Shown: positions 2,639 through 37,710 of the stretch, in pieces
Numbering within the stretch: position 1 is the first letter of the stretch
Layout of the letters: each line of letters starts with the position of its first letter
Source: an uncultured bacterium
GTDB taxonomy: Bacteria; Zhuqueibacterota; QNDG01; DTFT01
Length of the DNA stretch: 64,000 bases
Assembly (NCBI GenBank): GCA_963736115.1
Contig: CAVTNR010000009.1
Coordinates: forward strand, 166,051 to 230,050
Reading direction: 5' to 3'
Notes under the pieces: generated by a model
Seen by the model: only the letters and a program-made list of their open reading frames with translations
What the model was told of the DNA's origin: nothing
Database searches by the model: none
Made by a program: the position numbers and the translations under genes

Positions 2639-2716
2639 ATCACCCTTTCCTGACTCCCCCGGCGGGGAATCGCCTTTTACGGCGGACGGACGGGAGTCCG
2701 TCGCAGAGCCGGTCCT

Positions 2717-4306: not shown

Positions 4307-4353
4307 CTCCTGTCTGGTTGTGCCGGTCGCGTGAGCGGAAAGCGGACCGGTTA

Positions 4354-5280
4354 TCAATGCCCCGGCTGTACGGGCCGGAGGGCCTCCGCGAGATCGGACC
4401 GGAATTCGCGGCGCTTCCTGTGGTCCCGGATGACGCCGGCCCCCCTGCGAACGGCCGCGTACAGGGCGAGAAAAACCACGGCCGGAAACACGATGCAGTC
4501 AAACACGAATCCCGCGATGAGTTTCAGCACCCATTCGGTCAGCTCGCCGGTCCGGCGGGCCAACAGGGCCGTGACGCGCTCGAGTTTTTCCCTGCCCTCG
4601 GTGATTTTCCCCCACAGGCCCGACCGCCCGTCCCGTGGCCCATTCAGTTCCGTTTGGATCCGCTGGAATCCGTCATGGGCCTGTTCGACGGACGGGCGCG
4701 TGATGCGTTTCGAAAGCCAATGGCCGCCCGCGATTGAAACGGGGACCACGAGCGTCAGCGCGACGGCTACGAGTCCGGCCATCCACGCGGCGTCGCGGAG
4801 AAACGCCCGGAGAAAGCGGAGCCGGGGCAGGGTCCACGCAACAACGAGACCGAACAGAATCGCGGCGAATGTCGCGGCCAGAAACCAGGAAGAAAGCAGG
4901 TCGGCCGCCTGAAGCAGGTACCGGGTGCCCAGCAGAACCGCGGCGCACGCGAGCACCACGCGCCAGGCGATGTCCACATAGTCGTAGGCCGACTGGACCA
5001 CATTCCCGACCTCGAGGTTGAAGCCGATTCCCACGTCCGACCCCTGTACCACGGCCAGGCCGACCTTCACGGCCGAGATCACGGCAAACGTTTTCAGGGT
5101 TTTGTCGAATGAGGCCGACAGATAGGCGTCGTTCGACGCCTTCAACCGGCCCAGCCCGGCGGCGTCCATGCCTTTACGCATCAGCCCGCCGACCGACAGT
5201 ATGACCGCGGCGGACAGGAGAAGGACTGCGGCGGCGCGCCTGGCCGCCGGAGGGTTCGCGTTCATGGCGTCAACCGTCAA
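4354..5280 (-). CDS. Hypothetical multi-pass membrane protein
   Basis: 308-aa ORF with several hydrophobic segments, overlapping the proC stop; start uncertain (5280 or 5265). Confidence 0.7.
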   Translation of the reverse strand: MTVDAMNANPPAARRAAAVLLLSAAVILSVGGLMRKGMDAAGLGRLKASNDAYLSASFDKTLKTFAVISAVKVGLAVVQGSDVGIGFNLEVGNVVQSAYDYVDIAWRVVLACAAVLLGTRYLLQAADLLSSWFLAATFAAILFGLVVAWTLPRLRFLRAFLRDAAWMAGLVAVALTLVVPVSIAGGHWLSKRITRPSVEQAHDGFQRIQTELNGPRDGRSGLWGKITEGREKLERVTALLARRTGELTEWVLKLIAGFVFDCIVFPAVVFLALYAAVRRGAGVIRDHRKRREFRSDLAEALRPVQPGH

Positions 5281-9419: not shown

Positions 9420-9463
9420 GTCGGACTTCCCTTCAAGGAGCCTGTACTTCTGAAAACTCCGGC

Positions 9464-10516
9464 TCAGTCCTTTTCAACGGAAAACCGGTATTCGGTCACG
9501 GTCCGGTATTCCTCGCCCGGCCTGAGCGTGGTGGACGGAAATTCCGGCCGATTCGGCGAATCCGGAAAATGCTGGGGTTCCAGGCAGAATCCCGTCCGTA
9601 ATCCGTAGGCTTTGCCGCTCTTGCCGGTCAGGGACCCGTCCAGAAAATTCCCGGAATAGAACTGGATTCCAGGCTCCGTGGTCCACACTTCCATGACCCT
9701 GCCCGAACCCGGTTCGGTCATCCGCACCGCCCGTGACAGGGCGCCGCCCCCCGTGTTCAGTACAAAGTTGTGGTCGTATCCGCGGCCGAGCTTGAGCTGT
9801 TCGTCCGGATCGCCGATGCGCAGTCCCACGGGGCCGGGTTTCGTGAAATCCAGCGGCGTCCCTTTGACCGGCCTGAGTTCGCCGGTGGGGATGAGATTGG
9901 CATTCACGGGCGTGAAGCGGTCCGCATCGATCTGAAGCAGATGCCCCAGGATGTCCCTGCTTCCCTCTCCCGCCAGGTTGAAATACGAATGGTGCGTCAG
10001 GTTCACGACCGTGGCTTTGTCCGTGACGGCCCGGTAATCGATGCGCAGAATCTGCTCGTCCGTCCACCGGAATTCCACGGTCACGTTCAGGTTGCCGGGG
10101 AACTGCTCCTCGCCGTCCGGGCTGACACGCGAAAAAACGACCCCGTCGCCTGAGGCGGAAGGCTCCGCCTTCCATAGCATCAGATGAAAACCCATTTTCC
10201 CGCCGTGCAGGCTGTTCGGCCCGTCATTGGGGGTCAGCCGGATCTCCCGTCCGTCCAGCTTGAAGGCCGCGCCCGCGATGCGGTTGCCGTACCGGCCGAT
10301 GGTCCCGCCGATGAAACAGCCGTTGGTCGCGTATCCGTCCGGGGTGCCGAACCCCAGCGTGACGTCCTCCTTCCGGCCCGCGCGGTCCGGCACGGTCAGG
10401 GAGACCAGCGACGCCCCGAAATCGGTGAGAACGGCCGTGCAACCGTTCCGGTTGGTGAGCTCGAACAGTTCCGTTTCCGTGCCGCCGGACGTCCGGCCGA
10501 AAGGTTTCCGTTGCAT
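9464..10516 (-). CDS. galM: Aldose 1-epimerase (galactose mutarotase)
   Basis: IGRYGNRI, LHGG, NLTHHSYFNL, YDHNF, FCLEPQHFPDSPN; ATG at 10516. Confidence 0.93.
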   Translation of the reverse strand: MQRKPFGRTSGGTETELFELTNRNGCTAVLTDFGASLVSLTVPDRAGRKEDVTLGFGTPDGYATNGCFIGGTIGRYGNRIAGAAFKLDGREIRLTPNDGPNSLHGGKMGFHLMLWKAEPSASGDGVVFSRVSPDGEEQFPGNLNVTVEFRWTDEQILRIDYRAVTDKATVVNLTHHSYFNLAGEGSRDILGHLLQIDADRFTPVNANLIPTGELRPVKGTPLDFTKPGPVGLRIGDPDEQLKLGRGYDHNFVLNTGGGALSRAVRMTEPGSGRVMEVWTTEPGIQFYSGNFLDGSLTGKSGKAYGLRTGFCLEPQHFPDSPNRPEFPSTTLRPGEEYRTVTEYRFSVEKD

Positions 10517-10532
10517 GAGTCTGTTTCCTCCG

Positions 10533-12521
10533 TCAAGATTGGGAATGGTTCGTTCCGGTTGCGCCGAGCGATTCTTCCACGGCCCGGAGCAACGCATTGA
10601 GGTCATAGGGTTTCTGGAGAAAGCGGAATCCCCTCTCCAGGATGATCGGCCACTGTGATTTCTGATCGGTGTACCCGGAACAGAGGAGAATCCGCGTCCC
10701 CGGATACAGCCGGAGGATGTCGTCGGCCAGGTCGATGCCGGTCCGGTCGGAAAGCACGACATCCGTGAACACCAGGTCGAAAGCGCCCTTTTCACGGCGG
10801 ACCAGATCCCAGGCGGATTGAACGCTGTCGGCCACGGTCACGCGGTAGCCGCATTTCAACAGCGCCTTGGCCGCGGATTCGCGGACCTTGTCCTCGTCCT
10901 CCACCAGCAGGATTCTCTGGCCGCGACCCGGACGGTCCGGGGTCCGGGAGCGGGATTCGGAGGCCGGTTCCGCGGGCACGGCCGCGGCGGGCAGGTACAC
11001 GGTGAACACCGATCCCCGGCCGGGCTCGCTCGTGATGTGAACCGCGCCCTCGTGCTGTTTCACGATTCCGTACACCACCGACAAACCCAGCCCGGTCCCC
11101 TGCCCCGCGGGTTTCGTGGTGAAAAAAGGCTCGAAAATATGCTCGATCACGTCCGGGGTCATTCCCGTCCCCGTGTCCGCCACCGACAACACCGCGTACG
11201 ACCCGGCCTTCACGTCGGGCAGGTCGCGGCACTCCCGCTCTCCGAGTACCGCATTGGCCGTCCGTATCGTGACCGTGCCGCCGCCGGGCATCGCGTCCCG
11301 CGCGTTCAGCACGAAGTTCATGATCACCTGCTCCATATTGGACGCGTCCGCCCGCACCGGAAAGAGGGCGGAATCGAGCTCGGTGCGTATTTCAATGTCC
11401 TCGCCGATCAGCCGATGCAGCATGCGGAGCAGGTTCTCGATGATCGGATTGACCGCCAGCGTCCGGAATTCCATCGGGTGCTTCCGGCTGAACAGGAGCA
11501 GCTGTCGGATCAGGCCCGTGGCGCGAAGCGCGGAATTCCGGATTTCCTTGAGCTCGCCGGAGAGGTCGTTTGAATCGTCGGTTTTCATCATGGCGAGGTC
11601 GGCGCTGATCTGAATCGCCGTCATGAGGTTGTTGAAATCATGCGCCACGCCGCCGACCACCGCGCCGATGGCCTCCATCTTCTGCGACTGAAAAAGCTGC
11701 TGCTGAATCTTGTCCTTCTCATCCTCGGCGAGCTTGCGGCCGGTGACGTCCCGGAGACTGCAGAGGACGATGTCCCGGCCCTCGAAACGGGTGCGGCTGC
11801 ATTCCAGCTCCGCGACCGGACCGCGGCCGCCGGCGGAGGAAACCGCGCCCTCGTAGCGCGCGAAACCGTTCTGTTCCAAACGATCGAGGAACAGGGCGTA
11901 CACCGCGGGAAAGGGGATGAACCCGGCCTCCGCCAGGGTGCGGCCGATCACCGAACCGGCGGGCGCGCCGATGAATTCCATGGTGAAGGGGTTGGCTTCC
12001 GTGATGCGTCCCGTTCCCGAATCGAGCAGGAGAATGCCCTCCCGCGCGGTTTCAAAAAGCCATTGGAACCGTTTTTCCGATTCGCGGAGCGCGGTCTCCG
12101 CGCGCCGGCGCGCCTCGGACGAGGAACTGCGCCGCAGGGCGCTTCGGACGGCGCGGGCCAGACGGCCGGGTTCGTCCTTCGGGACGAAATCGTCGGCTCC
12201 GGCCCCGATGCAGTCGAGGGCCTCCGGTTCACGGTCCGGCGAAGCCAGGATGATGAACGGAATGTCCGGATGGTACTGCCGGAGCAGGCGGACGGCTTCG
12301 AGGCATGCGGGCGCGGCCAGGGCGTCGTCGTACAGAATCAGGTCCGTCTGCGATGAAAGCATCTCGCGCAGATACGCGTCCCGGTCCCCGGCCCGCCGGA
12401 TGCGGCAGGACAGACCGGCGGCCGCCAGTTCTCTTTCCGCGGATGAGGCCGTATCCCCGGCCGGGTCCGCAGGCGCGGCCGCGAGTACGAGCACACGGAT
12501 GGTTTCCGCGGGGCCGGTCAT
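10533..12521 (-). CDS. Hybrid sensor histidine kinase (REC-PAS-HisKA-HATPase-REC)
   Basis: QSQKMEAIG..GGVAHDFNN H-box, NARDAM N-box, IFEPFFTTK, GTGLGL, C-terminal ILLVED/TDVVL/KP receiver. Confidence 0.92.
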   Translation of the reverse strand: MTGPAETIRVLVLAAAPADPAGDTASSAERELAAAGLSCRIRRAGDRDAYLREMLSSQTDLILYDDALAAPACLEAVRLLRQYHPDIPFIILASPDREPEALDCIGAGADDFVPKDEPGRLARAVRSALRRSSSSEARRRAETALRESEKRFQWLFETAREGILLLDSGTGRITEANPFTMEFIGAPAGSVIGRTLAEAGFIPFPAVYALFLDRLEQNGFARYEGAVSSAGGRGPVAELECSRTRFEGRDIVLCSLRDVTGRKLAEDEKDKIQQQLFQSQKMEAIGAVVGGVAHDFNNLMTAIQISADLAMMKTDDSNDLSGELKEIRNSALRATGLIRQLLLFSRKHPMEFRTLAVNPIIENLLRMLHRLIGEDIEIRTELDSALFPVRADASNMEQVIMNFVLNARDAMPGGGTVTIRTANAVLGERECRDLPDVKAGSYAVLSVADTGTGMTPDVIEHIFEPFFTTKPAGQGTGLGLSVVYGIVKQHEGAVHITSEPGRGSVFTVYLPAAAVPAEPASESRSRTPDRPGRGQRILLVEDEDKVRESAAKALLKCGYRVTVADSVQSAWDLVRREKGAFDLVFTDVVLSDRTGIDLADDILRLYPGTRILLCSGYTDQKSQWPIILERGFRFLQKPYDLNALLRAVEESLGATGTNHSQS

Positions 12522-26836: not shown

Positions 26837-27610
26837 TTAATCCAGCACGGCGATCACGGTTTCACCGAGCGACAGGTCCAGCTTGTCCCGCGCGCTTCCG
26901 TGGTTCACCGAAAGTTCCAGCGCGTCCGCGCCGCCGAGAATGGCCAGAAGCTCCCCGGCTGGCACATCGAGATACGACCGGGACAAGCTCTCCAGCACAA
27001 GCCCTTTCACCAGCACCCGGACACGGTCCGCGTCCGCGAGCCATTCAGCCGGTATATTGGTAATCGCATTTCCGTAACGGTCGAAGGCGATGACTTCGCC
27101 CACGATGCGGTCCTCGAGCCGGGCGGCTGTAGCAATGGTTCCGTGCTCAACCTCTTCGAAAGGCCGGCCCAGCTTTTCGACAGGCACGCCCTTTGCCAGA
27201 TGGCCGGCCAGGGGCGCGAATATGTCCCGGCCGTGAAACGTGCGGCTGACGGTTTCGCGGAAATACTCCGGCCGTGTGGCGCAGAAGACTTTGGCATCCG
27301 GATTGCCGTCGAACACGTATTTCAGCACCCTGTTGTTCGGCGCGAGAAAGACATAATCCCGCGTTTTCACAACCAGGATCAGCCGCTCGGTGCCCACGCC
27401 CGGATCCACGACCACGACGTGAATGGAGCCTTTCGGGAAGAACGGGTACGCGCCCCTGATCACGTAAGCGGCACGGTCCACATCCTGAGGCGGGATGTCA
27501 TGCGATACGTCCACGATTTTCGCGTCCGGCTCGATGGAAAGGATGACGCCCTTCATCGCGGCCACGTACGGGTCGGACAGCCCGAAATCGGTGGTGAGTG
27601 TGATGATCAC
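26837..27610 (-). CDS. SAM hydroxide/halide adenosyltransferase family (DUF62)
   Basis: TLTTDFG, VVDPGVG, TFHGRDIFAP, DRYGN.ITN. Confidence 0.93.
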   Translation of the reverse strand: MIITLTTDFGLSDPYVAAMKGVILSIEPDAKIVDVSHDIPPQDVDRAAYVIRGAYPFFPKGSIHVVVVDPGVGTERLILVVKTRDYVFLAPNNRVLKYVFDGNPDAKVFCATRPEYFRETVSRTFHGRDIFAPLAGHLAKGVPVEKLGRPFEEVEHGTIATAARLEDRIVGEVIAFDRYGNAITNIPAEWLADADRVRVLVKGLVLESLSRSYLDVPAGELLAILGGADALELSVNHGSARDKLDLSLGETVIAVLD

Positions 27611-27765
27611 GGGGTTCCCCCGATATTGGGAAGGCTAGAAAGAAGATACGTCCCGGCGGGTCGGATGTCAAGGGGAATTGGAACTATAGGCAGGCTTGAG
27701 CGTTCATGCGAGTCGCCCTGAGACATCCCCTCCTGCTTCGCCCCCGAAGGGCCTTGCGGCGGATC

Positions 27766-30288
27766 TCACGGCAACCCCGACGCCGCGCCCAGCCTGGCGT
27801 CGTTGTACCACGACGTGTAGTCCTCGGTGGTCACCTGACCGTTCAGGTTTATGTCCGTGTCCTTGTATCCGGATTCCCCGAGGCGGGCGGAATTGTACCA
27901 GGCCGTGTAATCCATCGGTCGTCACCTGGCCGTCCTGGTTGATGTCCCCGACCCACATTCCGTAAACCCCGGTTTCCAGCAGTTTCACGGGATTTAAACC
28001 GTACGAGGACGAGGCATTGTCCGCGAAAGAGAAGGGGCTGGATGAGGAAACGGACAGACCCAGCGGATCCGCGCTCATCACGGCCGCATGATTCCTGTGC
28101 TTGACGACGACGTAATAGTCCCCTGCCGGCGCGCTGATCGGAATGCGCGTGATAAGTTCCGTTGTCCGACACGATGCGGCCGTCACTGCGGAGCAGGGCG
28201 CTTTTTGATGCGATTGCAGGCCCGTTTTCGTCCGCCCTCAGCTCAACCAGCACCCAATCCGTAATGCCGGACGGAACGGTCACGCTCCTGTCATTGTCCT
28301 CCTCATACGGCGGAACGGACGGGACCTGTGCCGCATCCCGGAGCGTTGTCACCATGGCGTCTCCGGCCGTTGAATACGCGCCCTCCAGAATGACTTTTGC
28401 GTCCACGAACACTTCAGGCGGATAAGCGGCGTTCACGTCGAGCTTGCCGTATCCCCAGGTGGCGTTGGGGCAGGCGCCTGTGTACGCGTCCGTGGCCGCG
28501 TTTCCGGTGATGGCGTCGTATAATTGCTGGGGCGTGAGGGTCGGGGTTTTTTGGAGAAGCAACGCCGCGGCGCCGGCAACAACCGGGCAGGCCATGCTGG
28601 TGCCTTGCATCACGTAATAATCCGCGTCTCCCCCGACTCACGCCGTCATTGTCCACCCAGAAAGAGTTAGAGATAGTAAATATATCTGTGTCCCGTATGG
28701 AAATGATTGCAGAACCGGGCGCTGTGATTTCCGGTTTTTGCGCTCCGTCTATTCGAGGCCCGCGGCTGGAAAACGAACAAATGATTCTCAACGCTCTCGC
28801 CATATGCTGTATAAGTAACTACCAATTATACTGGCGTGCCCAGTATTGACCGCGACGTCCAGGCCGCCACGGCCATGGCATGATCCGCGACTGCCGGACT
28901 GCCGACGGTATAGGCCGGGATCAGGCGATTGAAAAGTCACAGGCTGTGTCATTCCAGTATTCGTATATATGGAATGTCACCGTATTGGAAGAGTATGTCT
29001 GAACTCTCAAGTAATATGTATCCCTCGGACACAGTCGCGGTTGTACAGGAGACCTGCGATTCGGTAGCTCTGTGCACTTTCTGTGGTTGAGTACCAGGTC
29101 ACATCGACTGTATTCGGCTTTCGTCAGAGGCCGAAATATCGTGAGCTGAAGGGCGTTACTCGCCGATGATCCCGTCCCTCCATACCAGATTGAATTGCAA
29201 CTTCGTAGTCCCGGCTGCACCGCTAACCACGTATGGAATTTCGGACTGTGGACGTGTTCGGTCCGACCGTACCGCTGTAATGCCTTCCGTCATTCGCGGT
29301 GTTGCCGGCGGAAAGAAATACCAGCCCTGCCCTGCTCATAGCACCAGTCCACCGTCTGTTCCATCGACTCACTGCCGTCGTTGAAATACTCCCCACCCGC
29401 CATAGCTCATACTGATAATATCCGCATTGTACGTGCTGACCGCTGCTGTCATTGCCGCAACTATCGCGGCGCCCGTAGCGCCGCCGGTTACGTCTTGTCC
29501 GATTTTCAGAAAAACCAGATCCGCTCCCGGAGCCATGCCCTTGTAAGCGCCTCCGCCGTTCCCCGACATTGGCCGCAGACCGCACCCGCGGCCGAGTACT
29601 GTGCCGGTCACATGCGTACCGTGGCCGGTTGCTGTATTTTCCACATCTGTGTCAGATCGGATCCGTGCGTGAACCGGACGAATAGTCTTCCTTCTCGAAA
29701 CTCGCCGGCAAATCCGCATTGACCGGGTCCGTGTCCAGTCCGGAGTCCAGGATGGCGACCTTGACGCCTGATCCGTCGCTTCCCTTTTCCCAAACCAGAT
29801 CAGCCTCTGATCGCCTTGTACGCGGCATTGTTCTGCGGTTGAAGAATCCGCTCCGCTGAATCCATGCGCTTGATGAAAGGCAGTGCCAGAACGTCCGCGT
29901 GCTTCAATGGGGGCAGTTTCGCCAGAATGAAACCCCAGGGGTGTTTGCCGACAGGAGGCGTCCAGGTTTCAGGGTATACGGTCACGCCCAATTTGTCCAG
30001 CACTTTCAGGTTGGCGCCGCTCGGCACATCGAGCATGTACACCACGACCATGGCCCCGTCTTCGTCCTGAGCCGATGCCCGATCCGAGGCGGCGGCCAGC
30101 TTTTCGTCGAGCATCATCTCGAGCCCGCCGCCCAGCTTGTGGACAAGCGAATCCGGCGTGAACACGCGCCTGGGCCCGAAGGCATTCGTCCCGTTCCCGG
30201 TCCGGTTCTCTGCAAACAGGACGGTCGCGGCGGACAGCAACAGAACGATTACCGTGTGCATGCGGATTGCGGATTTACCGTTTATCAT
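27766..30288 (-). pseudogene. Secreted S8 subtilisin-like protease with C-terminal LEG/HRNH + dockerin-like module; multiply frameshifted (pseudogene or sequencing errors)
   Basis: Signal peptide; VAILDSG, GHGTHVTG and GTSMACP catalytic motifs in successive frames; tail ILEGAY..DWVLVELR..HRNH..GDINQDGQVTT..DINLNGQVTTEDY. Confidence 0.8.
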
Positions 30289-30329
30289 CTTCACCTCTTC
30301 CCTCGGGTCTCTATTCCAATCAAAACCGT

Positions 30330-30522
30330 TGTCATTGCGAGCCCCGCGGCAGCGGGGCGCGGCAATCTCAGCCTCAAACTGGTCCATCCGAGATTGCTTC
30401 GTCGCCGCGCAAACGCGGCTCCTCGCGACTCCACATCTCAAAACCCGTCGCGGAGAAATTGTCCGAAAGGCCCGCAGAAAAATGCGGGCCATTTCGGACC
30501 TACATGGCTACTCGCAATGACA
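30330..30522. repeat. TGTCATTGCGAG...CTCGCAATGACA palindromic element containing a nested GTAGGTCCGA-family unit
   Basis: 12-bp terminal inverted repeat, internal GCAATCTC/GAGATTGC stem, nested GTCCGAAAGGCCCGC...GCGGGCCATTTCGGACCTAC. Confidence 0.75.
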
Positions 30523-30524
30523 TA

Positions 30525-33009
30525 TTACGGCACCCGCGACGCGGCGCCGAGCCGCGCGTTATTGTACCACATCGTGTAATCCATGGTCGTGACCTGGCCG
30601 TCAAGATTCACGTCCTCAACGAGGTATCCGGACGCCCCGAGTCTGGCCGCGTTGTACCAGGACGTGTAATCCATGGTCGTCACCTGGCCGTCGCGGCTCA
30701 CGTCCCCGGCCCACATTCCGTACAGTCCGTCACGAAGCTGTTTCATCCCTGCCGGACCGTAGCTCTGGCCCTCTTCGGACAGATTGACGGTTCCACTTTC
30801 CCTGTCCGTCAGAAGAACCGCGGACGCGCTCATGACCGGCAGATGGTTGCGATGCCGTATCACTATATAATAGAATCCTGTGTCGATTTTCAGTGGAATC
30901 GGGCCCGCAAGGCTGTCCGGATCGACAATGGACCCGTCCGACAGCAGAATCGCGCTTCTGGACAGGAATGCGGGTTCGGACGGCCCGGTTCTGAGCTGTA
31001 TCAGCACCCAGTCCACCGCATTTTCCGGGAAATCGGTCACGGTTTCAGGATCCTCCGCATACGGGGAAGCGGAAGGAATCCGGCCTCCTCCATTCAATTC
31101 CGAAGACAGGTTGTCTCCCGCGGCATTGTACGGTCCTTCGAGAAACGCGATCGGGGACACAACCACCGCATGCGAACGGAACGTGTTGTCCGCTGAGAGG
31201 CCGAGCTTGCCCCATTGATTCTCCGATAATACGCGGAAATGATATTCCGTGTACGGGTCGAGGCCTGAAAGCATCACGCGATGCAAGGTGGTTCTGTTCG
31301 CGTCCAGTTCGGTCGTATGTCCATAAGCCTCGGTCGTACCGTACTCGACCTGCGAGGTCGCGGGGACGTCCGTGTCCCAGGCGATAAATGCGCTGTCCGT
31401 TCCAACCTCCTCAACACGGAGATTGGAAATCATGGGATAATCGCCGTACGTGTAACTCCCGGGCTGATAGTAATTCCAATTCTGTTTCAGGCGGGTGTAG
31501 AGCGGATCGTCCCATTTTGAAGGCTTGGGCTGGTTGGTATTCGGTTCCGCGTTCCAGTATATCTTGACCTGAAAGTCCGTGCTGTCGTACGATACGATTT
31601 CCTCCCTGCTGTCGCCCGCGACATCCGCGACATACAGCAAAGTCGCCTGCATGGCAGGCGTCTGGCCCGCGGTGGACCAGTACGCCGTGCCGGTCATGGG
31701 ATCAAGCACACCCAGGTTGCCGTTCGCGTGCCGTGCCAGGGACGCGATCTGATCCGTGGGCAGTCCGAACCAGTCGATGGTGGAAGAGGGTTCCACGCCC
31801 TCGCTGTTTCCGACCGGATTGAATCCCGCCGGAAGGGCGGCGCCGATGTTGTAATCCGCGATCTGAGCCCCTGTCGCATTGAACATCCAGGGATGCTGGT
31901 GGTCCAACCAGGGGAGCAGTGGCCCCCTTGAGCTCAGCCAGACTTCGGCGTGATTGTGAGCCGTCGTGAAGTTGCCGGCCGCGACGTTCTGCGGCTCCTT
32001 CGGCTTTTCCGGTTCGGGATAGTAGAGCGTTGTCTCGTTACGCCAGAGAATACCACCCGTGGCTCAGCATGGCCGTGTGGTAATCGTAAAAGAAGGGCCA
32101 TACAGATCCATTCGATGTATTGTCCTCTTCGACCACGATCCATTCGAGACCCGGCAGATCAGGCCTGAAATCACCCACGGTCACTGCGTCGATGTGATCC
32201 ACGTACTTGTCATATCCGTTCTCCCCCACCCATTCGGACGGATAGGAAAGCGTAGAGACGATACCTGTATGGTCCACGTAACCCGCGCCCACGACTTCGT
32301 CCCTGCCGTCATTGTCCACATCCGCGGCGATGAACGGGCCGTGCGCAGGCCCCCAGTAGCCTTCGTAATACCCGTTGACCGTGTTCCGGTCCTGTTCCAC
32401 ACGCCAGAGCTGGCTTTTGTTATCCATCCGATAAGCGATGAGCGCGCGGTTGTAGTAATAGGCCGGATGCGCCCCCTCGATGCTCGTATCCATGGTCTGG
32501 ACGATGATGTCCCGGTCACCCTCGCCGCGCAGGTTGACGATCTGCACGTGGCCGACAATCTGATCGGTATTGCTCGTACTCACGCTGAACCGGGTTTCTT
32601 CCTCTCCCGTGGCCCCGTCCAGAACCACCACCTGGTTCACGCCTGGTTCGTAATGCAATGCGATGATTTCCACCGTCCCGTCCCCGTCCACATCTCCGAC
32701 CGCATGCTTGACCGCGTGGTTGTTGATCAGTACCCCCGGATAGGAACAATCCGCGCTCCACATGAAAACGCCCCAATGGTCGTAAGCATACACCTTTGTC
32801 TTGGAGCGGTAAGTGAAATCGAGAAGCCCGTCTCCGTTCAGGTCCGCGGTGAAAAATGAGGAGAAATACCCCCAGATCTCGTCTTCGATCGGAAAAGTGT
32901 ACGGATTGGACGGATACTCGGGCATATCCGCAAGTCCGGATCCGAAGCCGAATACAACGCTGATCGCGAGAATGAGAAGGATGAAAAGGCTGCTGTCAGT
33001 TTTTCTCAT
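30525..33009 (-). CDS. Secreted FG-GAP/PL11 (rhamnogalacturonan lyase)-like beta-propeller + FN3 + LEG/HRNH + dockerin-like tail; one extra base at ~32057
   Basis: DLNGDG, DVDGDG, DVDNDGRDE, HID.VTVGDF.PD.PGLE motifs; FN3 (SQVEYG..GL.P.T.Y.F.V); two DxxxDGQVTTMDY repeats; frames join as LSHGGILW. Confidence 0.75.
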
Positions 33010-33195
33010 AACCCCAATAAAAAGGCAAAGTTCGGGCCATCCCCTCCGCATCGAATTCCAGTTGAAAGAGCGCCTAATTCCCGTTTTTACAAGACAGCTG
33101 ATCCCCCCTTGATCTCATGGGAAGACGCAAAAGCCATTTCTGAAGCCTAAAGATAGGAATTATTTTCCCTAAAACAAAGCACGTGAAAAAGAACA

Positions 33196-33226
33196 TCCCG
33201 CGGGTTTTTACCAACCAGCGGGAGGT
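33196..33226. repeat. CCTCCCGCGGGTT-family palindrome (degenerate copy)
   Basis: Similar to 37159-37190, 46963-46998 and 48765-48800. Confidence 0.6.
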
Positions 33227-33237
33227 ATTCCTGGGAA

Positions 33238-33275
33238 TAAAAAGAGCCGTCGGTATGACCGACGGCTCTTTTTTA
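33238..33275. terminator. Bidirectional Rho-independent terminator
   Basis: AAAAAGAGCCGTCGGT-ATG-ACCGACGGCTCTTTTT just after the 33297 stop. Confidence 0.85.
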
Positions 33276-33296
33276 TGTCTCTATGGAAGGTTACGT

Positions 33297-34451
33297 TTAC
33301 CGCATCAACGTCATTTTGCGCACAGCCGAGAACTCGCCGGCCTGCACGCGGACGAAATACATGCCGCTCGAAACCGCGTTCCCCAAATGATTCGTGCCGT
33401 CCCACTTGACGTCATACCGGCCCGCGGTCATGTGCCCGTCAGCGAGCATCTTCACTTCGCGGCCCAGCAGGTCGAATACACGAACGGATACAAGGCCGTC
33501 CTCAGGCAGTTCATAATGGATGGTCGTTTCCGGGTTGAACGGATTCGGGTAATTGCGCGACACGCTGAACTCCTCGGGCAGGGGGAGCGCCGCTTCAACC
33601 GCGATCGGGCCGAGAAACTGCGACTGGCCGGTCAGGGAAACTTCCTCGATCTTGTACCAGAACGTCTTTCCGTGCGCGCTCCTGTCCGTGAACGTGTAAT
33701 CGTTTCTGGACGAGGAATTGCCGCTGCTGGGGATGAGCGCGGTTGTGACGCGCTTATTGATCGCATTCTCGGATTCACCGCGCCACACGTGGAATCCGGC
33801 GCTGTTGGTCTCGCTCTCCGTGGTCCAGCTCAGCGTCACGCCCTCGCGGCTGGTTGTCTGGGCCGTGAAATTCGTCATCTGAACCGGCAGGGACATGTCG
33901 CCGAGGTCCTGGTTGGAAACCACAAAATCTATCTGAGAACCCTTTGGCGCATTGGTCCAATTGCTGAAATACGCGGCGGCATCCGTCGCGTCGGAGATGG
34001 TGACGTTGGCGGTCCCGGTTGAAGCGATGTACCATTTCAGCGTGACCACGGTCTGCCAACCGGCAGTGACATCCCAACCAGGCGGATTTCCGGGGGGTGT
34101 GGCAACATTCAGCGCATTGACAGTCGGCCCTGTGACCAGCAATCGATAATATCCGCTCCAGCGATCCGCCGAGGTGGCGTATCCATCCAGAAAGCTGAAG
34201 GCCCAGCCTGCGGACGGGTCATCGCCCCATTGTGTCAGAGTGGAGTTATAGTAAACATCGATAGTCATGGAAGCAAGCGTGCGGGGCGGAGTGCCCGTCA
34301 TCCGTACCTGAAGAGCCACATGAAATTCCTGGCCGACGGCCATATCGTTCCGGGTATTGATGAGCCGGAATTCCGCATCATCCGCCCTAACGATTTCAGA
34401 CATTAAAAAACATGCGGTTAACGCCATTAAAAATTTTATCGCATTTTTCAT
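33297..34451 (-). CDS. Secreted protein: cohesin-like N-terminal domain, LPV-junction Ig/FN3-like domain, FlgD/T9SS-like sorting tail
   Basis: Signal peptide; GQEFHVALQV..ASMTIDVYYN..L..VVTLKW beta pattern; SLPVQMTNF; NYPNPFNPET...SGMYF...KMTLMR. The cohesin call is pattern-based only. Confidence 0.7.
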   Translation of the reverse strand: MKNAIKFLMALTACFLMSEIVRADDAEFRLINTRNDMAVGQEFHVALQVRMTGTPPRTLASMTIDVYYNSTLTQWGDDPSAGWAFSFLDGYATSADRWSGYYRLLVTGPTVNALNVATPPGNPPGWDVTAGWQTVVTLKWYIASTGTANVTISDATDAAAYFSNWTNAPKGSQIDFVVSNQDLGDMSLPVQMTNFTAQTTSREGVTLSWTTESETNSAGFHVWRGESENAINKRVTTALIPSSGNSSSRNDYTFTDRSAHGKTFWYKIEEVSLTGQSQFLGPIAVEAALPLPEEFSVSRNYPNPFNPETTIHYELPEDGLVSVRVFDLLGREVKMLADGHMTAGRYDVKWDGTNHLGNAVSSGMYFVRVQAGEFSAVRKMTLMR

Positions 34452-34494
34452 CTTTTTCCTCCTCGCCAGATCATCAAGGTACTTTTCCAATATA

Positions 34495-34523
34495 AATATA
34501 AGGAGTCTTTTCCCTATACGCAA
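34495..34523 (-). promoter_or_regulatory. Sigma-70-like promoter candidate
   Basis: TTGCGT-N17-TATATT about 45 bp upstream of ATG 34451. Confidence 0.45.
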
Positions 34524-34635
34524 CCTGTTTATTATTCACGCGTTTCCCCGCTCGTTTTCACCTCTTCAATCCCCCGCCTCTCCGTCTCTCCCCTTCTCCG
34601 TTTCATTCATCCCAAAGCCCACATTATTCGAAAGA

Positions 34636-36660
34636 TCACGGCACCCGGGAAGAACCTCCGGCCCGCGCTGTGTTGTACCAGACCGAATAATCCGAAGTGG
34701 TCACCTGTCCGTCCAGATTGAAATCAGTCGGGACGTATCCGGAACCTCCGACTCTCGCGGAATTGTACCAGACCGTGTAATCCGTTGTCGTGATCTTGCC
34801 GTCCGCGTTCGCGTCTCCGGCCCACATGCCCCATATGCCGTTTTCCAGAAGGTGCTGCCCGCCTGTTCCGTAGCAGGATTCCGGCGAGGCCGTGAAGTCG
34901 ACACTCGCTGATGTTTGCAAATCGAGCGCCAAAGGCGAGGCGCTCATCACAGCCCCGTGATTGCGGTGCCGGACGACGACATGATACGATCCCGGCGGCA
35001 CGCCAGGAATGACCAGGTCCGCTGTCGTTCCGTCCGGTTCCACTATGGTCCCGTCATGCTTCAGGAAAAAGGACCGGCCGCCCGCGGTTGTGCTCCCGTC
35101 CGGGAGACGCAGTTCAACGAACACCCAGTCCGTCACGTCTTCGGGAACCGCGCCCTCGGTGCGTCCATCCGCATAGGGTGAAACAGAAGGGATCCGGTCC
35201 GAGGCGTTCAATTCCGTCGTCATGGTTCCGCCCGAACCGTAAGGCCCTTCGAGCATGACTCGAACCGCCGTGCGGACCCGGTTGGGGCTCGTGTACGCGT
35301 AAATGCACGGGTCGATGTATCCGTCCTCCGGGTTCCAGGACTGCCGGTCCGGCATCTTGGTCCAGCAATTCCCCCACTCGATGATCGGATTGTTGTATCC
35401 CTCGACCAGAGTTTCCGCGGGCAGGGGCGTGGCCCACCCGGGTGTCTGATACCGGACCTTGATGTAATAATCATTCCCGTCGGCCAGACAGACCGGCTGG
35501 GATAGGCTGAAGGTGTAGTATCCGGCATACGCGCAGTTCTGTTCCGGGACAGCCGCAAGCATGCCGGTCAGCCGGCTGTCGCCGTCGAAATCGTCATACA
35601 CTTCGACGCTGATCTTGGCTCCCGCGCTGACCGCCCAGGTGCCGATGCGGTCAAGCCGGACGTCCCCGTCCGCGACGAAACGGACCAGGCCGTCGGCTGT
35701 GTCCGTGATGTAGCCGACACTGCAGATGAATCCGGATTCCGCGTATGTGGTGATGCCCGACCCGGAAGTATAATCGATTGCGCCGCCGAATCGTGCGATC
35801 GAGGAATTGAATTTCGTGTCCTGGTAGGAGACGTAAAAGTACCCGGCTTCACCCCAGGCCGTTCCCCAACTGTTCTTGACGATCCACGCGCCTGTGCCGC
35901 CTGCCGTGACCTTGTTGTCGTCCCATCCGGCCAGGACAACCGCGTGGTTGGGAGAAGCGGTTCCGGGATAATGGTATGTGCGGTTCTGGGAATTGTAATA
36001 GGCAGTGGCATAATACATGTTGGTGTACAGGCCGCCGGAGGTCATCAAAGCGTTCTTGATGACCGCAGGATCACGGGGAAAAAAATGGACGGACGTGACT
36101 GTTCCCTGCGGATCGAATCCGGACGGGCAGTCGACCGTCTTATGATCGTCATCGTACGGATCATCCGCTTCCGAATAGGGTCCGGATCCCCTAACCAGGC
36201 ACGCGGATGCCATGTACGCATTGCCTCCGAGGCAGGGCGCCTTCAGAAACGGGAGATGGCAGGTGTTCAGGTGGTCTTCCGAAAGGTCAAACACGCCCCT
36301 GCCGCTGACCGCCCAATCGGACTCGACTGCGCCCAAAACGCCGAAAGCCCAGCAGGACCCGCAATTGCCCTGATTCTTCACCGGCGTCAGGCCGTTCGAT
36401 TCCCGGAGGTCAAACCTGGGAGGCGGTTCGGACTGGGGTGTCATCCACGCGCCGTCCACGGGCCGGTCTGAGTTGATCAGGAAAGGCGGCGGTATTTCTC
36501 CGAGCCGCCGGCCTTCAGCCGTGACGTCCCGATAACGGCCGTTCCTCTGCTGGTTTCTCCATCGCAGGAATTCAGGATTCCAGTTCTCGTCCCTGACCGC
36601 GCCTTGCGGAAAAGCCGAGGCCATCGCGGCCAGTACAACGACTGCAATTGTTTTTCTCAT
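34636..36660 (-). CDS. Secreted papain-like C1A cysteine protease with lectin-like domain and LEG/HRNH + dockerin-like tail
   Basis: Signal peptide; QGNCGSCWAF, NHAV, KNSWG catalytic motifs; tail MLEGPY..DWVFVELR..HRNH..GDANADGKITTTDY..DFNLDGQVTTSDY. Confidence 0.9.
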   Translation of the reverse strand: MRKTIAVVVLAAMASAFPQGAVRDENWNPEFLRWRNQQRNGRYRDVTAEGRRLGEIPPPFLINSDRPVDGAWMTPQSEPPPRFDLRESNGLTPVKNQGNCGSCWAFGVLGAVESDWAVSGRGVFDLSEDHLNTCHLPFLKAPCLGGNAYMASACLVRGSGPYSEADDPYDDDHKTVDCPSGFDPQGTVTSVHFFPRDPAVIKNALMTSGGLYTNMYYATAYYNSQNRTYHYPGTASPNHAVVLAGWDDNKVTAGGTGAWIVKNSWGTAWGEAGYFYVSYQDTKFNSSIARFGGAIDYTSGSGITTYAESGFICSVGYITDTADGLVRFVADGDVRLDRIGTWAVSAGAKISVEVYDDFDGDSRLTGMLAAVPEQNCAYAGYYTFSLSQPVCLADGNDYYIKVRYQTPGWATPLPAETLVEGYNNPIIEWGNCWTKMPDRQSWNPEDGYIDPCIYAYTSPNRVRTAVRVMLEGPYGSGGTMTTELNASDRIPSVSPYADGRTEGAVPEDVTDWVFVELRLPDGSTTAGGRSFFLKHDGTIVEPDGTTADLVIPGVPPGSYHVVVRHRNHGAVMSASPLALDLQTSASVDFTASPESCYGTGGQHLLENGIWGMWAGDANADGKITTTDYTVWYNSARVGGSGYVPTDFNLDGQVTTSDYSVWYNTARAGGSSRVP

Positions 36661-37006
36661 CCTGATCGCCCCCGGTTGTCCCCTAAGGCCGGTGCATATA
36701 CGAATGGACAGACCTCGATGCGGAAACCGCTTGTCCGGGCTTTTGGTTGTCAAATACCCCGAACAGCGAAAATCCGCATTAAAGCAGGGATGATGGCGTG
36801 CCGGATGGGAATGGACGAGAGCAGGAGAGGGATTACGCGCAGTTGAACCGCTGGCACTGCATGAAGCGAATCATCGATCCCCGTCCGCCAACGCGGATCA
36901 TCCAAATGACCGATTTAAACCGTTCAGGAATCCCCTTTGGCTGAATATCGCAATATGTTAATTCGGGGATTCTCTGGTCGGGATACACCGATCCACTTAA
37001 TACACG

Positions 37007-37022
37007 TGCAAGTCCAGTGCCA
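37007..37022 (-). promoter_or_regulatory. Sigma-54 (-24/-12) promoter
   Basis: TGGCACTGGACTTGCA (GG-N10-GC) in an intergenic region, oriented toward the protease cluster. Confidence 0.65.
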
Positions 37023-37158
37023 TAATCGGTGTCTTGGGGGTATCGGCTGTAATATTAAAAGGTTGGAGGATTCTGTGGGTCGGTATGTTCGGGAGTGAAA
37101 CCGGAAAAAATTACTTCAGCAGGCACGATTATCGTCCAATTATCCCCCCATAGAAAAG

Positions 37159-37190
37159 CCTCCCTCAGGTTGGTACAAACCTTCGGGAGG
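37159..37190. repeat. CCTCCCGCGGGTT-family palindrome (degenerate copy)
   Basis: CCTCCCTCAGGTT...AACCTTCGGGAGG. Confidence 0.6.
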
Positions 37191-37238
37191 GTTTTCTGAT
37201 ATTGGGATCAACGCATTACCCTAATTATTCCACTTTTC

Positions 37239-37276
37239 ATCCGCGAAAATCCGTTTCATCCGCCTGATCCGTGTTC
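37239..37276. repeat. 9-bp periodic ATCCG tandem repeat
   Basis: ATCCGCGAA ATCCGTTTC ATCCGCCTG ATCCGTGTT; reverse-complement array at ~49674-49709. Confidence 0.7.
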
Positions 37277-37290
37277 TATTTTTGGGACAG

Positions 37291-37710
37291 TCACTCCCCA
37301 ATCGCCTGCACCACGATGTCCCTCTTTCTCGGCCGCGTGTCGCAGTCCACGAGCACGATCTGCTGCCACGTTCCAAGCAAAAGGCGGCCTTTCTGGAAGG
37401 GGACGATCAGCGAGGGGCCGATGAGCGAGGCGCGCACATGGCCGTGTCCGTTTCCGTCTCCCCAGGTGTTATCGTGCTGGTAGGGATGGTCCGCGGGCGC
37501 GATTCGCTCGAGCGCTTCGGGGAAATCATGGAGCAGTCCGGGCTCGAATTCGATGGTCGTGACGCCGGCGGTCGCGCCGGGCGCGAACACCGTGACCTGT
37601 CCCTCGGTCATGCCGGTCTCGGCCAGGACGCCAGCCACCGCTTCAGTCAGATCGACCGGGTGGGAGTTGCCTTTCGTGGAGACGGGGATGTGGGATGTGT
37701 GGATTTTCAT
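37291..37710 (-). CDS. YjbQ/UPF0047 family protein
   Basis: TAGVTTIE.EP, NGHGHVRASL.G, L.LGTWQ.I motifs. Confidence 0.92.
   Translation of the reverse strand: MKIHTSHIPVSTKGNSHPVDLTEAVAGVLAETGMTEGQVTVFAPGATAGVTTIEFEPGLLHDFPEALERIAPADHPYQHDNTWGDGNGHGHVRASLIGPSLIVPFQKGRLLLGTWQQIVLVDCDTRPRKRDIVVQAIGE

What the first reader, a model, noticed from the sequence alone, without database searches (positions are those of the whole stretch)
27766..37022. Candidate cellulosome-like cohesin-dockerin complex of secreted proteases and a lyase-like enzyme
Seen: four co-oriented secreted genes. Three unrelated catalytic heads (C1A papain-like protease, FG-GAP/PL11-like propeller, S8 subtilase) end in the same ~210-aa module with two Ca-binding-like repeats and lack the NYPNPF sorting tail. 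The fourth (33297-34451) has no recognisable catalytic motif but has a cohesin-like beta domain and does carry that tail. Known: dockerins are duplicated DxNxDGxVxxxD-plus-helix repeats that bind cohesins in cellulosomes, and cohesin/dockerin modules also occur outside cellulolytic systems. Inference: a single-cohesin adaptor anchors or co-exports interchangeable dockerin-tagged enzymes, forming a protein/polysaccharide-degrading surface complex in a Gram-negative FCB-like lineage. I know of no characterised example of this architecture, but cannot confirm novelty without a search.
Basis: partly seen in the sequence, partly recalled or inferred. Interest (0 to 1): 0.87.

Follow-up and report, generated by a model that had tools for sequence, protein, structure and literature searches.

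The report
Surface-anchored cohesin with dockerin-tagged enzymes
An uncultured Gram-negative bacterium encodes a small surface-anchored "socket" protein next to proteases and a lyase-like enzyme that all end in the matching "plug", a clostridial-cellulosome-style docking kit rebuilt on the type IX secretion pathway; binding is untested.

Summary
The four co-oriented minus-strand genes exist, but in this assembly the S8 gene is broken by many single-base frameshifts and the lyase-like gene by one.

The shared 210-aa tail folds (pLDDT 96) as an X-module plus dockerin dyad. Its only strong structural matches are clostridial type II X-dockerins (Z 10.1 and 9.5; next row 4.8).

The fourth protein is cohesin fold + FN3 + T9SS type A sorting domain. 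For residues 22-191 the top 16 structural matches are all cohesins (Z up to 14.8). No sequence method sees this: it is an unannotated cohesin-like family.

In 26 of 28 related genomes the best cohesin-like gene carries the tail itself or sits beside a tail gene. Two families have a three-gene cassette that looks like a two-tier scaffoldin system.

Complex prediction gave only weak support (0.33; best control 0.02).

39 of 69 tail-bearing genomes lack this cohesin-like family. 32 of those 39 have canonical Pfam cohesins; 7 have none detected.

An in-silico precedent exists in Cloacimonadota (PMC8542988), and this scan has noted similar T9SS cohesin-dockerin systems on other DNA.

Verdict: a real, conserved variant of a known kind.

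The parts
34636..36660 (-). C1A papain-family cysteine protease with Sec signal peptide, lectin-like domain and C-terminal X-dockerin tail; intact
   Evidence: Pfam Peptidase_C1 1.9e-35 and Lectin_like 7.8e-15. The Cys/His/Asn motifs (CGSCWAF, NHAV, NSWG) are visible in the translation; that these are the papain motifs is recalled. 84% aa identity over the full length to the G029 orthologue.
34639..35268 (-). X-module + dockerin (XDoc-like) tail of the C1 protease, 210 aa
   Evidence: AF2 pLDDT 96.1, pTM 0.92. VIA: 3kcp_A Z 10.1 and 5g5d_B Z 9.5, next row 4.8. Foldseek top 10 are all type II XDoc chains. Dockerin_1 22.5 bits. Both DxNxDGxxxxxD loops are visible.
33297..34451 (-). 384-aa adaptor: signal peptide, cohesin-fold domain, FN3 domain, T9SS type A C-terminal sorting domain
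   Evidence: AF2 pLDDT 86. Fold search. TIGR04183 38.4 bits, cut-off 23. Single copy in the genome.
33879..34388 (-). Cohesin-fold domain (residues 22-191 of the adaptor)
   Evidence: VIA-wide: the top 16 rows are all cohesins; best 6kgc_A Z 14.8, rmsd 2.4, 137 of 144 aligned. No Pfam or PDB sequence hit.
33582..33884 (-). FN3-like domain (residues ~190-290)
   Evidence: VIA Z 10.9 to Ihog FN3 (2ibg_A, 2ic2_B). The Foldseek top hit 2w1n is a cohesin+FN3 double module.
33312..33551 (-). T9SS type A C-terminal sorting domain (residues 301-380; contains NYPNPFNP)
   Evidence: Por_Secre_tail PF18962 30.3 bits (cut-off 27) and TIGR04183 38.4 bits.
30525..33051 (-). FG-GAP / rhamnogalacturonan-lyase-family-11-like propeller protein with fn3 domain and XDoc tail (30528-31148); one single-base frameshift near 32061 in this assembly
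   Evidence: Pfam RGL11_C 3.6e-11, FG-GAP_3 2.2e-10, fn3, Dockerin_1 24.0 bits. tblastn of the intact G029 and G030 orthologues switches frame once at 32062/32060.
27766..30288 (-). S8 subtilase with XDoc tail (about 27769-28394); reading frame broken many times in this assembly
   Evidence: Peptidase_S8 hits on fragments in three frames. Three-frame reading. About 14 single-base insertions against the G029 orthologue. The segments are 82-90% identical to the intact orthologue.

Best explanation
The 384-aa protein is a minimal anchoring scaffoldin. It is exported by the type IX secretion system through its C-terminal sorting domain and, as for other type A cargo, is probably fixed to the outer-membrane surface. 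It presents one cohesin-fold module on an FN3 spacer.

The neighbouring secreted enzymes (C1 cysteine protease, RGL11-like propeller, S8 serine protease) and four more proteins elsewhere in the genome carry no T9SS signal. They end instead in an X-module-plus-dockerin dyad with two intact Ca-binding loops. This dyad plugs into the cohesin, so that interchangeable degradative enzymes are displayed on the cell surface.

Shown: the folds, the domain order, the T9SS signal and machinery, and the conserved gene adjacency.

Inferred: the physical binding, its Ca dependence, the surface location, and the route by which the enzymes cross the outer membrane.
For: 1. Cohesin fold. Residues 22-191 of a pLDDT-86 model match solved cohesins in the top 16 rows (Z 14.8-11.2; rmsd 2.2-3.8 for 15 of them, 12.9 for the two-domain 2w1n_A row). 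The best non-cohesin for that range is Z 10.8. The Foldseek top hit is the cohesin-FN3 module 2w1n.

2. XDoc fold. The tail model (pLDDT 96.1, pTM 0.92) matches type II X-dockerin dyads at Z 10.1 (3kcp_A) and 9.5 (5g5d_B). The next row is 4.8. The ten best Foldseek rows are all XDoc chains. The Ca-loop aspartates D152, D163, D182 and D193 are invariant in 30 tails.

3. Division of labour. 0 of 76 tail-bearing proteins list a T9SS-tail Pfam family. All 34 adaptor homologues list PF18962 and/or PF13860.

4. T9SS machinery is present: PorU 839.9 bits, SprA 643 bits.

5. Synteny. I took the best cohesin-like match of each of 28 related genomes. In 26 the tail lies in the same or the adjacent ORF. 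Same-genus genomes G029 and G030 keep the order C1 - adaptor - RGL11-like - S8.

6. Co-occurrence. All 30 genomes positive with the cohesin-like profile are tail-positive.

7. Scaffoldin-style relatives. Cohesin-like + XDoc fusions are followed by a divergent cohesin-like + FN3 + CTD gene (hhalign 96.3%, E 1.7e-9). There are also 3x cohesin-like + FN3 + CTD proteins (L134).

8. Complex prediction: weak support. Score 0.33 (runs 0.32, 0.37, 0.33); best of 3 controls 0.02. The mark was reached by 116 of 157 solved complexes and 2 of 215 mismatched pairs. At 0.60 or under it was reached by only 18 of those 157 and by both mismatches that passed. The runs agree in at least 96% of contacts and the partner's pLDDT is at least 89. 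Cohesin-dockerin complexes are solved, so the pass may reflect likeness only.
Against: - No sequence method links the N-domain to cohesins. Pfam gives nothing at E<=10, 0 of 17 family members hit Pfam at 0.01, and the profile finds 0 PDB chains at E<=1.
- 39 of 69 tail-bearing genomes of the phylum lack the cohesin-like family. This includes same-genus G028 (76% complete; 9 tail matches).
- 7 of those 39 also lack a Pfam Cohesin match. One of them, G036, is 92% complete and has 18 tail matches. The tail therefore does not strictly need this partner.
- Two best cohesin-like genes (G101, G107) have no tail gene nearby.
- Another possible partner exists in the same genome: a 1532-aa T9SS protein with a Pfam Cohesin hit of 27.4 bits.
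- The complex prediction is only a weak pass.
- Two of the three enzyme genes are interrupted here.
- How CTD-less enzymes cross the outer membrane is not shown.
Confidence: 0.6

Rival explanations
1. The XDoc tail binds something other than the neighbouring protein: a canonical cohesin elsewhere (for example the 1532-aa T9SS protein on contig C12), a cell-surface glycan, or itself. The 384-aa protein would then be an independent T9SS surface adhesin or binding protein that happens to share a cohesin-like beta-sandwich.
For: The tail is present in 39 genomes that lack the cohesin-like family. Pfam cohesins occur in 149 of 167 genomes of the phylum. The own genome has a Pfam Cohesin hit of 27.4 bits in L144:11582-16180. 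The adaptor has no sequence similarity to cohesins. The complex prediction is only weak.
Against: Adjacency or fusion occurs in 26 of 28 genomes across five families. All 30 profile-positive genomes carry tails. The cohesins stand 2-4 Z units above other beta-sandwiches for this domain. The controls of the complex job scored 0.00-0.02 against 0.33.
Confidence: 0.2
2. Co-export: the XDoc enzymes, which have no T9SS signal of their own, bind the CTD-bearing cohesin protein in the periplasm. They are then carried through the T9SS translocon as a folded complex. The pair would be a secretion adaptor as well as an anchor.
For: CTD and XDoc are mutually exclusive: 0 of 76 against 34 of 34. The tail is always at the extreme C-terminus with an invariant last proline. 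A tail gene usually lies immediately upstream of the cohesin gene. That T9SS moves folded cargo is established knowledge, recalled.
Against: No piggy-back export through T9SS is known to me (recalled). No secretin was found in the own genome, but secretins are present in 150 of 167 genomes of the phylum, including all three same-genus relatives. A secretin-based route is therefore probably available, and its absence here is best explained by 87% completeness.
Confidence: 0.1
3. In this particular genome the locus is decaying: the S8 and RGL11-like genes are pseudogenes and the system is no longer functional here.
For: There are many frame changes in S8 and one in the RGL11-like gene. 5 of 7 tail genes are interrupted genome-wide. 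The adaptor orthologue of G029 has an in-frame TAG.
Against: The S8 pieces outside the scrambled central stretch are 82-90% identical to the intact G029 orthologue. That is no lower than the intact C1 protease (84%) or the RGL11-like gene (84%). About 14 of the gaps against the G029 orthologue are isolated single-base insertions in the window. This pattern fits assembly or polishing error, or very recent events. No reads could be laid on the region.
Confidence: 0.1

Closest known systems
Type II cohesin / X-module-dockerin complexes of Clostridium (Acetivibrio) thermocellum and relatives (PDB 2b59, 3kcp, 4fl4, 5g5d, 5k39)
   Same: The tail is a compact Ig-like X-module packed on a duplicated F-hand dockerin (Z 10.1 and 9.5). 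The partner has a cohesin jelly-roll fold. The cohesin-bearing protein is the cell-anchoring component.
   Different: Here the XDoc sits on enzymes (proteases, a lyase-like propeller) rather than on the primary scaffoldin. Anchoring is by a T9SS sorting domain on a Gram-negative outer membrane, not by SLH or sortase (the clostridial side is recalled). The cohesin has no detectable sequence similarity to Pfam Cohesin. There is no CBM and there are no cellulases in the locus.
Putative cellulosome-like complex of Ca. Stygibacter (Cloacimonadota), Williams et al. 2021, PMC8542988 (passages read)
   Same: An FCB-group Gram-negative. It has dockerin-bearing S8 and cysteine (C25) peptidases and polysaccharide-active enzymes, and a cohesin protein with a conserved C-terminal domain for surface attachment that the authors tie to T9SS. 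It too was inferred from genomes only.
   Different: That system has one 3,755-aa scaffoldin with tandem Pfam-recognisable cohesins and CBM2/CBM3. Here there is a 384-aa single-cohesin adaptor from an unannotated sequence family, an X-module in front of the dockerin, and (in relatives) a three-gene two-tier cassette.
Non-cellulosomal cohesin-dockerin pairs of Clostridium perfringens glycoside hydrolases (GH84C Coh-FN3, PDB 2w1n; NagJ-NagH, 2ozn)
   Same: A cohesin directly followed by an FN3 module (Foldseek top hit; VIA row 15). The kit is used outside cellulose degradation to join enzymes. The dockerin rows 2ozn_B, 2vn5_B and 6kg9 align at rmsd 1.7-2.2 over 55-58 residues.
   Different: Those are Gram-positive and join enzyme to enzyme, not enzyme to an anchored adaptor. 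They have no X-module and no T9SS.
T9SS type A cargo anchoring (e.g. Porphyromonas gingivalis gingipains; PorU sortase, A-LPS attachment) - recalled knowledge
   Same: The adaptor has a TIGR04183 type A CTD. The genome encodes PorU and SprA.
   Different: In the known cases each enzyme carries its own CTD. Here the enzymes lack it and would be held indirectly through a protein-protein plug.

Membership tests
Cohesin (Pfam PF00963) | Nine-stranded flattened beta-sandwich (jelly-roll) cohesin fold | tested here: met
   The top 16 VIA-wide rows for model residues 22-191 are solved cohesins. Best: 6kgc_A Z 14.8, rmsd 2.4, 137 of 144 aligned. The model's pLDDT is 86.
Cohesin (Pfam PF00963) | Match to the family's sequence profile | tested here: not met
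   No PF00963 hit at E<=10 for the domain. 0 of 17 family members hit any Pfam family at 0.01. The A3 profile finds 0 PDB chains at E<=1.
Cohesin (Pfam PF00963) | Ca-dependent binding of a dockerin | not testable with these tools
   There is only a weak-support complex prediction: 0.33 against a best control of 0.02.
Dockerin type I-like (Pfam PF00404) | Two tandem ~22-residue segments, each a 12-residue DxNxDGxxxxxD Ca-binding loop followed by a helix | tested here: met
   Both loops can be read in all three window tails. D152, D163, D182 and D193 are invariant in 30 tails. Helices 161-172 and 191-202 appear in the model.
Dockerin type I-like (Pfam PF00404) | Match to the family's sequence profile above the curated cut-off | tested here: inconclusive
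   RGL11-like tail 24.0 bits (over 22.9). C1 tail 19.7 to 22.5 bits (just under). In the six-frame search both pass when neighbouring stretches are added (28.7 and 29.9 bits).
X-module-dockerin (XDoc) dyad of type II/III cohesin-dockerin systems | Ig-like X-module packed against the dockerin as one rigid unit | tested here: met
   pTM 0.92 for the 210-aa tail. 3kcp_A Z 10.1 and 5g5d_B Z 9.5 over model residues 1-210, next row 4.8. Foldseek gave no E<=0.001 match (best 1.0e-3), but its ten best rows are XDoc chains.
T9SS type A cargo | C-terminal type A sorting domain (TIGR04183 / PF18962) | tested here: met
   Adaptor: TIGR04183 38.4 bits (cut-off 23) and PF18962 30.3 bits (cut-off 27). The three enzymes have no such hit.
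T9SS type A cargo | T9SS machinery in the same genome | tested here: met
   PorU NF033707 839.9 bits (cut-off 420) and SprA TIGR04189 643 bits (cut-off 200).
Cellulosome (sensu stricto) | Multi-cohesin scaffoldin with a cellulose-binding CBM, carrying dockerin-tagged cellulases/hemicellulases | tested here: not met
   The adaptor has a single cohesin-like module, in a single copy, and no CBM hit. The heads in the window are C1, S8 and RGL11-like/FG-GAP. Multi-cohesin relatives exist only in other genomes (L134).

The most novel reading that the evidence does not exclude
The X-dockerin tail replaces the T9SS sorting domain. Enzymes that lack any outer-membrane export signal of their own dock onto a CTD-bearing cohesin carrier in the periplasm and ride through the type IX translocon with it. 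The cohesin-dockerin pair would then be a modular 'secretion by proxy' adaptor and not only a surface anchor. In related families this is extended to a two-tier cohesin/X-dockerin hierarchy built from a cohesin sequence family that no database recognises.
Probability: 0.1. Interest if true: 0.85.

Novelty: new variant of a known kind. Interest (0 to 1): 0.62.

Why it matters
Cohesin-dockerin assembly is the textbook mechanism of Gram-positive cellulosomes and a favourite scaffold of synthetic biology.

This locus is a compact, conserved version wired to the Gram-negative type IX secretion pathway. It consists of one 170-residue cohesin-fold module on an FN3 stalk with a T9SS anchor, and X-dockerin tags on proteases and many other heads. 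The heads seen are C1, S8, M6, beta-helix, metallophosphoesterase, LRR, lysyl-oxidase and multicopper-oxidase families.

If the pair binds, three things follow:
- A whole unannotated cohesin family would be explained: 85 representatives at 50% identity.
- It would show how uncultured FCB-group bacteria hold CTD-less enzymes on the cell.
- It would offer a minimal orthogonal plug-and-socket pair for surface display in Bacteroidota-type hosts.

It also gives a concrete, cheap test (two small domains, ITC with and without EDTA) of an idea that so far exists only as a genome inference (PMC8542988).

Tried and rejected
1. The search for related loci on genome contigs with alignment A1 keyed on the NYPNPFNP T9SS motif. 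It returned mostly unrelated T9SS proteins. Only L021 (a Calditrichaceae-labelled MAG) held full tails. The scan was effectively wasted for synteny.

2. Sequence routes to 'cohesin' all came back blank:
- Pfam at E<=10.
- phmmer against PDB.
- Profile A3 against PDB.
- Pfam on all 17 family members.
- BLASTP against P0146, a protein with a Pfam-cohesin annotation (E 61).

3. The argument 'no secretin, so the enzymes have no export route'. PF00263 is absent from the own genome but present in 150 of 167 genomes of the phylum, including G028, G029 and G030. I rejected this as support for co-export.

4. Promoter and terminator scan of 27500-37300: 7 promoter-like sites against 4.5 +/- 2.3 expected, and 13 terminator-like sites against 8.4 +/- 3.3. 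Uninformative, and FCB promoters are not covered.

5. The look-up of sequencing runs for 27700-33100: none was listed. The frameshifts could not be checked on reads, and read laying was not used.

6. Naming the phylum. NCBI names of homologues say only 'bacterium'. A handle search through named loci gave no kinship.

7. Literature searches. Only PMC8542988 bears on T9SS-linked cohesin-dockerin. PMC6109693 and PMC3534657 (passages read) were irrelevant. My recollection that a Latescibacteria genome paper reported dockerins was not borne out by the 'Latescibacteria + dockerin' search.

8. I considered programmed frameshifting in S8 and rejected it: there are too many sites and the orthologues are intact.
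Full report
WHAT IS THERE

The window is contig C9:166051-230050 of a 3.34-Mb, 31-contig MAG, 87% complete. All genes of the finding lie on the minus strand. In order of transcription they are:

(i) A C1A cysteine protease, 34636-36660. It has a signal peptide, Peptidase_C1 (1.9e-35) and a Lectin_like domain.

(ii) A 384-aa protein, 33297-34451.

(iii) An FG-GAP / rhamnogalacturonan-lyase-11-like propeller protein, 30525-33051 (RGL11_C 3.6e-11, FG-GAP_3, fn3).

(iv) An S8 subtilase, 27766-30288.

The three enzymes end in one homologous 210-aa module. The RGL11-like and S8 tails are 41-54% identical to the C1 tail, with E from 6.7e-59 (RGL11-like) to 4.1e-12 to 1.1e-20 (the three S8 pieces). 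None has a T9SS tail. Protein (ii) alone has one: TIGR04183 38.4 bits against a cut-off of 23, and PF18962 30.3 bits against 27.

THE OBSERVATION NEEDS ONE CORRECTION

The S8 gene is not an open frame. Its Asp, His and Ser motif regions lie in different frames. A DNA alignment to the intact orthologue of same-genus genome G029 shows about 14 isolated single-base insertions in the window. tblastn of the G029 and G030 orthologues hops between all three frames. The RGL11-like gene has one single-base shift at about 32061.

Genome-wide, 7 genes carry the tail and 5 of them are interrupted.

Outside its scrambled central stretch, the S8 pieces are 82-90% identical to the intact G029 orthologue. The intact C1 protease and the RGL11-like gene are both at 84%. 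I therefore think sequencing or assembly error, or very recent events, more likely than old decay. No reads could be found to settle this.

THE 384-aa PROTEIN

It has 34 homologues in the 5.8-billion-protein set, and all 34 list T9SS-tail Pfam families. Its N-domain alone has 85 representatives at 50% identity in the 1.84-billion set.

An AF2 model from 32 sequences has pLDDT 86. A search of 48,161 PDB representatives that does not rely on Foldseek puts solved cohesins in the first 16 rows for residues 22-191. The best is 6kgc_A (Z 14.8, rmsd 2.4, 137 of 144 residues). Others include 1ohz, 2vn5, 4uyp, 5lxv and 3kcp. The best non-cohesin for that range is Z 10.8.

Residues 190-290 are an FN3 domain (Z 10.9). 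The best Foldseek hit of the whole model is the cohesin+FN3 double module of C. perfringens GH84C, 2w1n.

No sequence method sees this:
- Pfam gives nothing at E<=10.
- 0 of 17 family members hit Pfam.
- The family profile finds no PDB chain at E<=1.

It is therefore an unannotated sequence family with a cohesin fold. I file it as 'cohesin-fold', not as a Pfam Cohesin member.

THE TAIL

A model from 30 tails has pLDDT 96.1 and pTM 0.92, which means one rigid unit.

Only two chains score above Z 5. Both are X-module-dockerin dyads of C. thermocellum type II complexes: 3kcp_A (Z 10.1) and 5g5d_B, the XDoc of CipA (Z 9.5). The next row is 4.8. Foldseek's ten best rows are all XDoc chains, although none reaches E<=0.001 (best 1.0e-3). 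Isolated dockerins align to residues ~147-205 at rmsd 1.7-2.2 (2ozn_B, 2vn5_B, 6kg9).

Both 12-residue loops (D-x-N-x-D-G-x-[VI]-x-x-x-D) are intact, and their first and last aspartates are invariant in 30 tails. Pfam Dockerin_1 scores 24.0 bits on the RGL11-like protein. On the C1 protein it scores 19.7 bits, or 22.5 on the 210-aa tail scanned alone. The cut-off is 22.9.

Across public data the tail is attached to many heads: C1, S8, M6, RGL11/FG-GAP, beta-helix, metallophosphoesterase, LRR, lysyl oxidase, multicopper oxidase and lactonase families. Of the 76 proteins found, none lists a T9SS-tail family.

CONTEXT IN RELATIVES

The phylum set holds 167 species genomes. Two of them, G158 and G162, are flagged unpublished. 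They count in all denominators below.

- The cohesin-like domain is found in 31 genomes with the single sequence and in 30 with a 17-sequence profile.
- The tail is found in 69.
- All 30 profile-positive genomes are tail-positive.
- 39 tail-positive genomes lack the cohesin-like family.

Pfam Cohesin PF00963 matches 149 of 167 genomes, 144 of them over the cut-off. Without the two unpublished genomes the count is 147 of 165. Canonical cohesins are therefore nearly universal in this phylum. 32 of the 39 'orphan' tail genomes have one. 7 do not: G024, G025, G034, G036, G040, G041 and G116, which are 78-99% complete.

For an unbiased look at adjacency I fetched the best profile match of each of the 28 related positive genomes. 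I left out the own genome and the weak G057 hit. I scanned the loci with HMMs built here. In 26 of 28 the tail lies in the same ORF or in the neighbouring ORF. The exceptions are G101 (a 726-aa protein with three cohesin-like modules + FN3 + CTD) and G107.

Same-genus G029 and G030 keep the window's order, C1 - adaptor - RGL11-like - S8, with intact 836-915-aa S8 and 873-892-aa RGL11-like genes.

Families f19 and f20 show a recurring three-gene cassette:
- Gene 1: a ~130-aa N-domain + XDoc.
- Gene 2: a cohesin-like domain + XDoc.
- Gene 3: a ~175-aa N-domain + FN3 + CTD.

The N-domain of gene 3 is a divergent member of the same cohesin-like family (hhalign 96.3%, E 1.7e-9). The dockerin helices of gene 2 differ visibly from the enzyme-type ones. 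I read this as a two-tier, scaffoldin-like hierarchy. That is inference.

MECHANISM

The own genome has PorU (839.9 bits), SprA (643 bits) and about 40 ORFs with a CTD-like end. The adaptor should therefore be exported by T9SS. From established knowledge of type A cargo (recalled), it should be attached to the cell surface.

The most economical reading is that the adaptor displays XDoc-tagged enzymes by cohesin-dockerin binding.

The one complex prediction allowed used cohesin residues 22-192 with the C1 tail, both as alignments, and two Ca ions. It gave weak support:
- Score 0.33 (runs 0.32, 0.37, 0.33); best of 3 controls 0.02.
- The mark was reached by 116 of 157 solved complexes and 2 of 215 mismatched pairs.
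- At 0.60 or under it was reached by only 18 of those 157 and by both mismatches that passed.
- The runs agree in at least 96% of contacts and the partner's pLDDT is at least 89.
- Cohesin-dockerin complexes are solved, so the pass may come from likeness.

How the CTD-less enzymes cross the outer membrane is open. I tested the idea that no secretin-based route exists. PF00263 is absent from the own genome but present in 150 of 167 genomes, or 148 of 165 without G158 and G162. All three same-genus relatives have it. The absence here is best put down to incompleteness, and co-export through T9SS remains only a low-probability reading.

COMPARISON AND NOVELTY

The kit works like a type II cohesin/X-dockerin anchor, but with differences:
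- The XDoc sits on enzymes.
- The anchor is a T9SS sorting domain.
- The heads are proteases and a lyase-like propeller.
- The cohesin is invisible to sequence profiles.

It is not a cellulosome in the strict sense. There is a single cohesin, no CBM and no cellulase.

Full-text searches were run for cohesin + dockerin + 'type IX secretion', for cohesin + dockerin + T9SS, and for 'cellulosome-like' + T9SS. They returned one relevant paper, Williams et al. 2021, PMC8542988. I read passages of it. It infers from MAGs of Ca. Stygibacter (Cloacimonadota):
- dockerin-bearing GH18, GH57, S8 and C25 enzymes;
- a 3,755-aa tandem-cohesin scaffoldin with CBM2/3;
- a conserved C-terminal domain for surface attachment, citing a T9SS review.

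I found no experimental characterisation of such a system in those searches.

Notes of this scan list 74 earlier findings in at least 69 genomes that hold the words cohesin, dockerin, T9SS, anchor and scaffoldin. The eight listed describe cohesin-dockerin systems tied to type IX secretion on other DNA. None matched this tail by sequence. These are unchecked AI notes, and I did not test them.

I rate the finding a new variant of a known kind.

VERDICT

- Observation: partly confirmed. The genes and modules are real, but two genes are interrupted.
- Interpretation: partly supported. Fold, domain logic and synteny are strong. Binding is untested. The tail is not restricted to genomes with this adaptor.
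- Confidence in the surface-display reading: 0.6.
- Interest: 0.62.

Noticed in passing
G000:C12:356500-373000 (locus L144; outside the window): Four tandem FG-GAP/ASPIC-UnbV propeller proteins (757-1532 aa), each ending in a FlgD_ig/T9SS-tail region. Two have internal Pfam Dockerin_1 hits, and the 1532-aa one has a Pfam Cohesin hit of 27.4 bits (cut-off 24.1). This is a second, different cohesin/dockerin-bearing T9SS locus and a possible alternative partner for the XDoc tails.
   Followed up: partly
Own genome: C9 (window 27766-33051), C17:5557-7366, C7:18260-19921, C31:18162-20616: 5 of the 7 XDoc-tail genes of this MAG are interrupted by frameshifts. Housekeeping genes in the window, such as the 485-aa RtcB-like and 553-aa ArgRS-like ORFs, are intact. 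The cause is unknown: assembly error in strain-variable genes, or real inactivation.
   Followed up: partly
L115 (G029:C67) 9445-10623: The adaptor orthologue of the same-genus genome G029 (93% identical N-domain) is split by one in-frame TAG.
   Followed up: no
Window 34639-34641, and the last codon of all 30 aligned tails: The tail always ends the protein, and its last residue is an invariant proline (...[VIL]-P-COOH). I know of no such feature in canonical dockerins (recalled). It might be a processing or sorting determinant.
   Followed up: no
L134 (G101:C42:213000-220000) 2640-4817; also G100:C217, G098:C22, G099:C18, G094:C134, G095:C305: Proteins of 723-742 aa with three tandem cohesin-like modules, of which the one examined (L134, 726 aa) ends in FN3 + a T9SS tail. 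These are scaffoldin-like members of the same unannotated family.
   Followed up: partly
L021 (Calditrichaceae-labelled MAG, contig CAZBWV010000058.1) 505-8192: Two genes with full XDoc tails (6e-60, 6e-58) flank a T9SS FN3+CTD protein. That genome holds 9 tail matches. The tail therefore reaches beyond the window's phylum set. Tail-bearing proteins are also labelled Rhodothermia and Flavobacteriales.
   Followed up: partly
P0143, P0146, P0169: Some XDoc-tail proteins carry a canonical Pfam Cohesin (PF00963). That domain is unrelated in sequence to the window's cohesin-like domain (BLASTP E 61 for P0146). At least two cohesin lineages are thus fused to this tail.
   Followed up: partly
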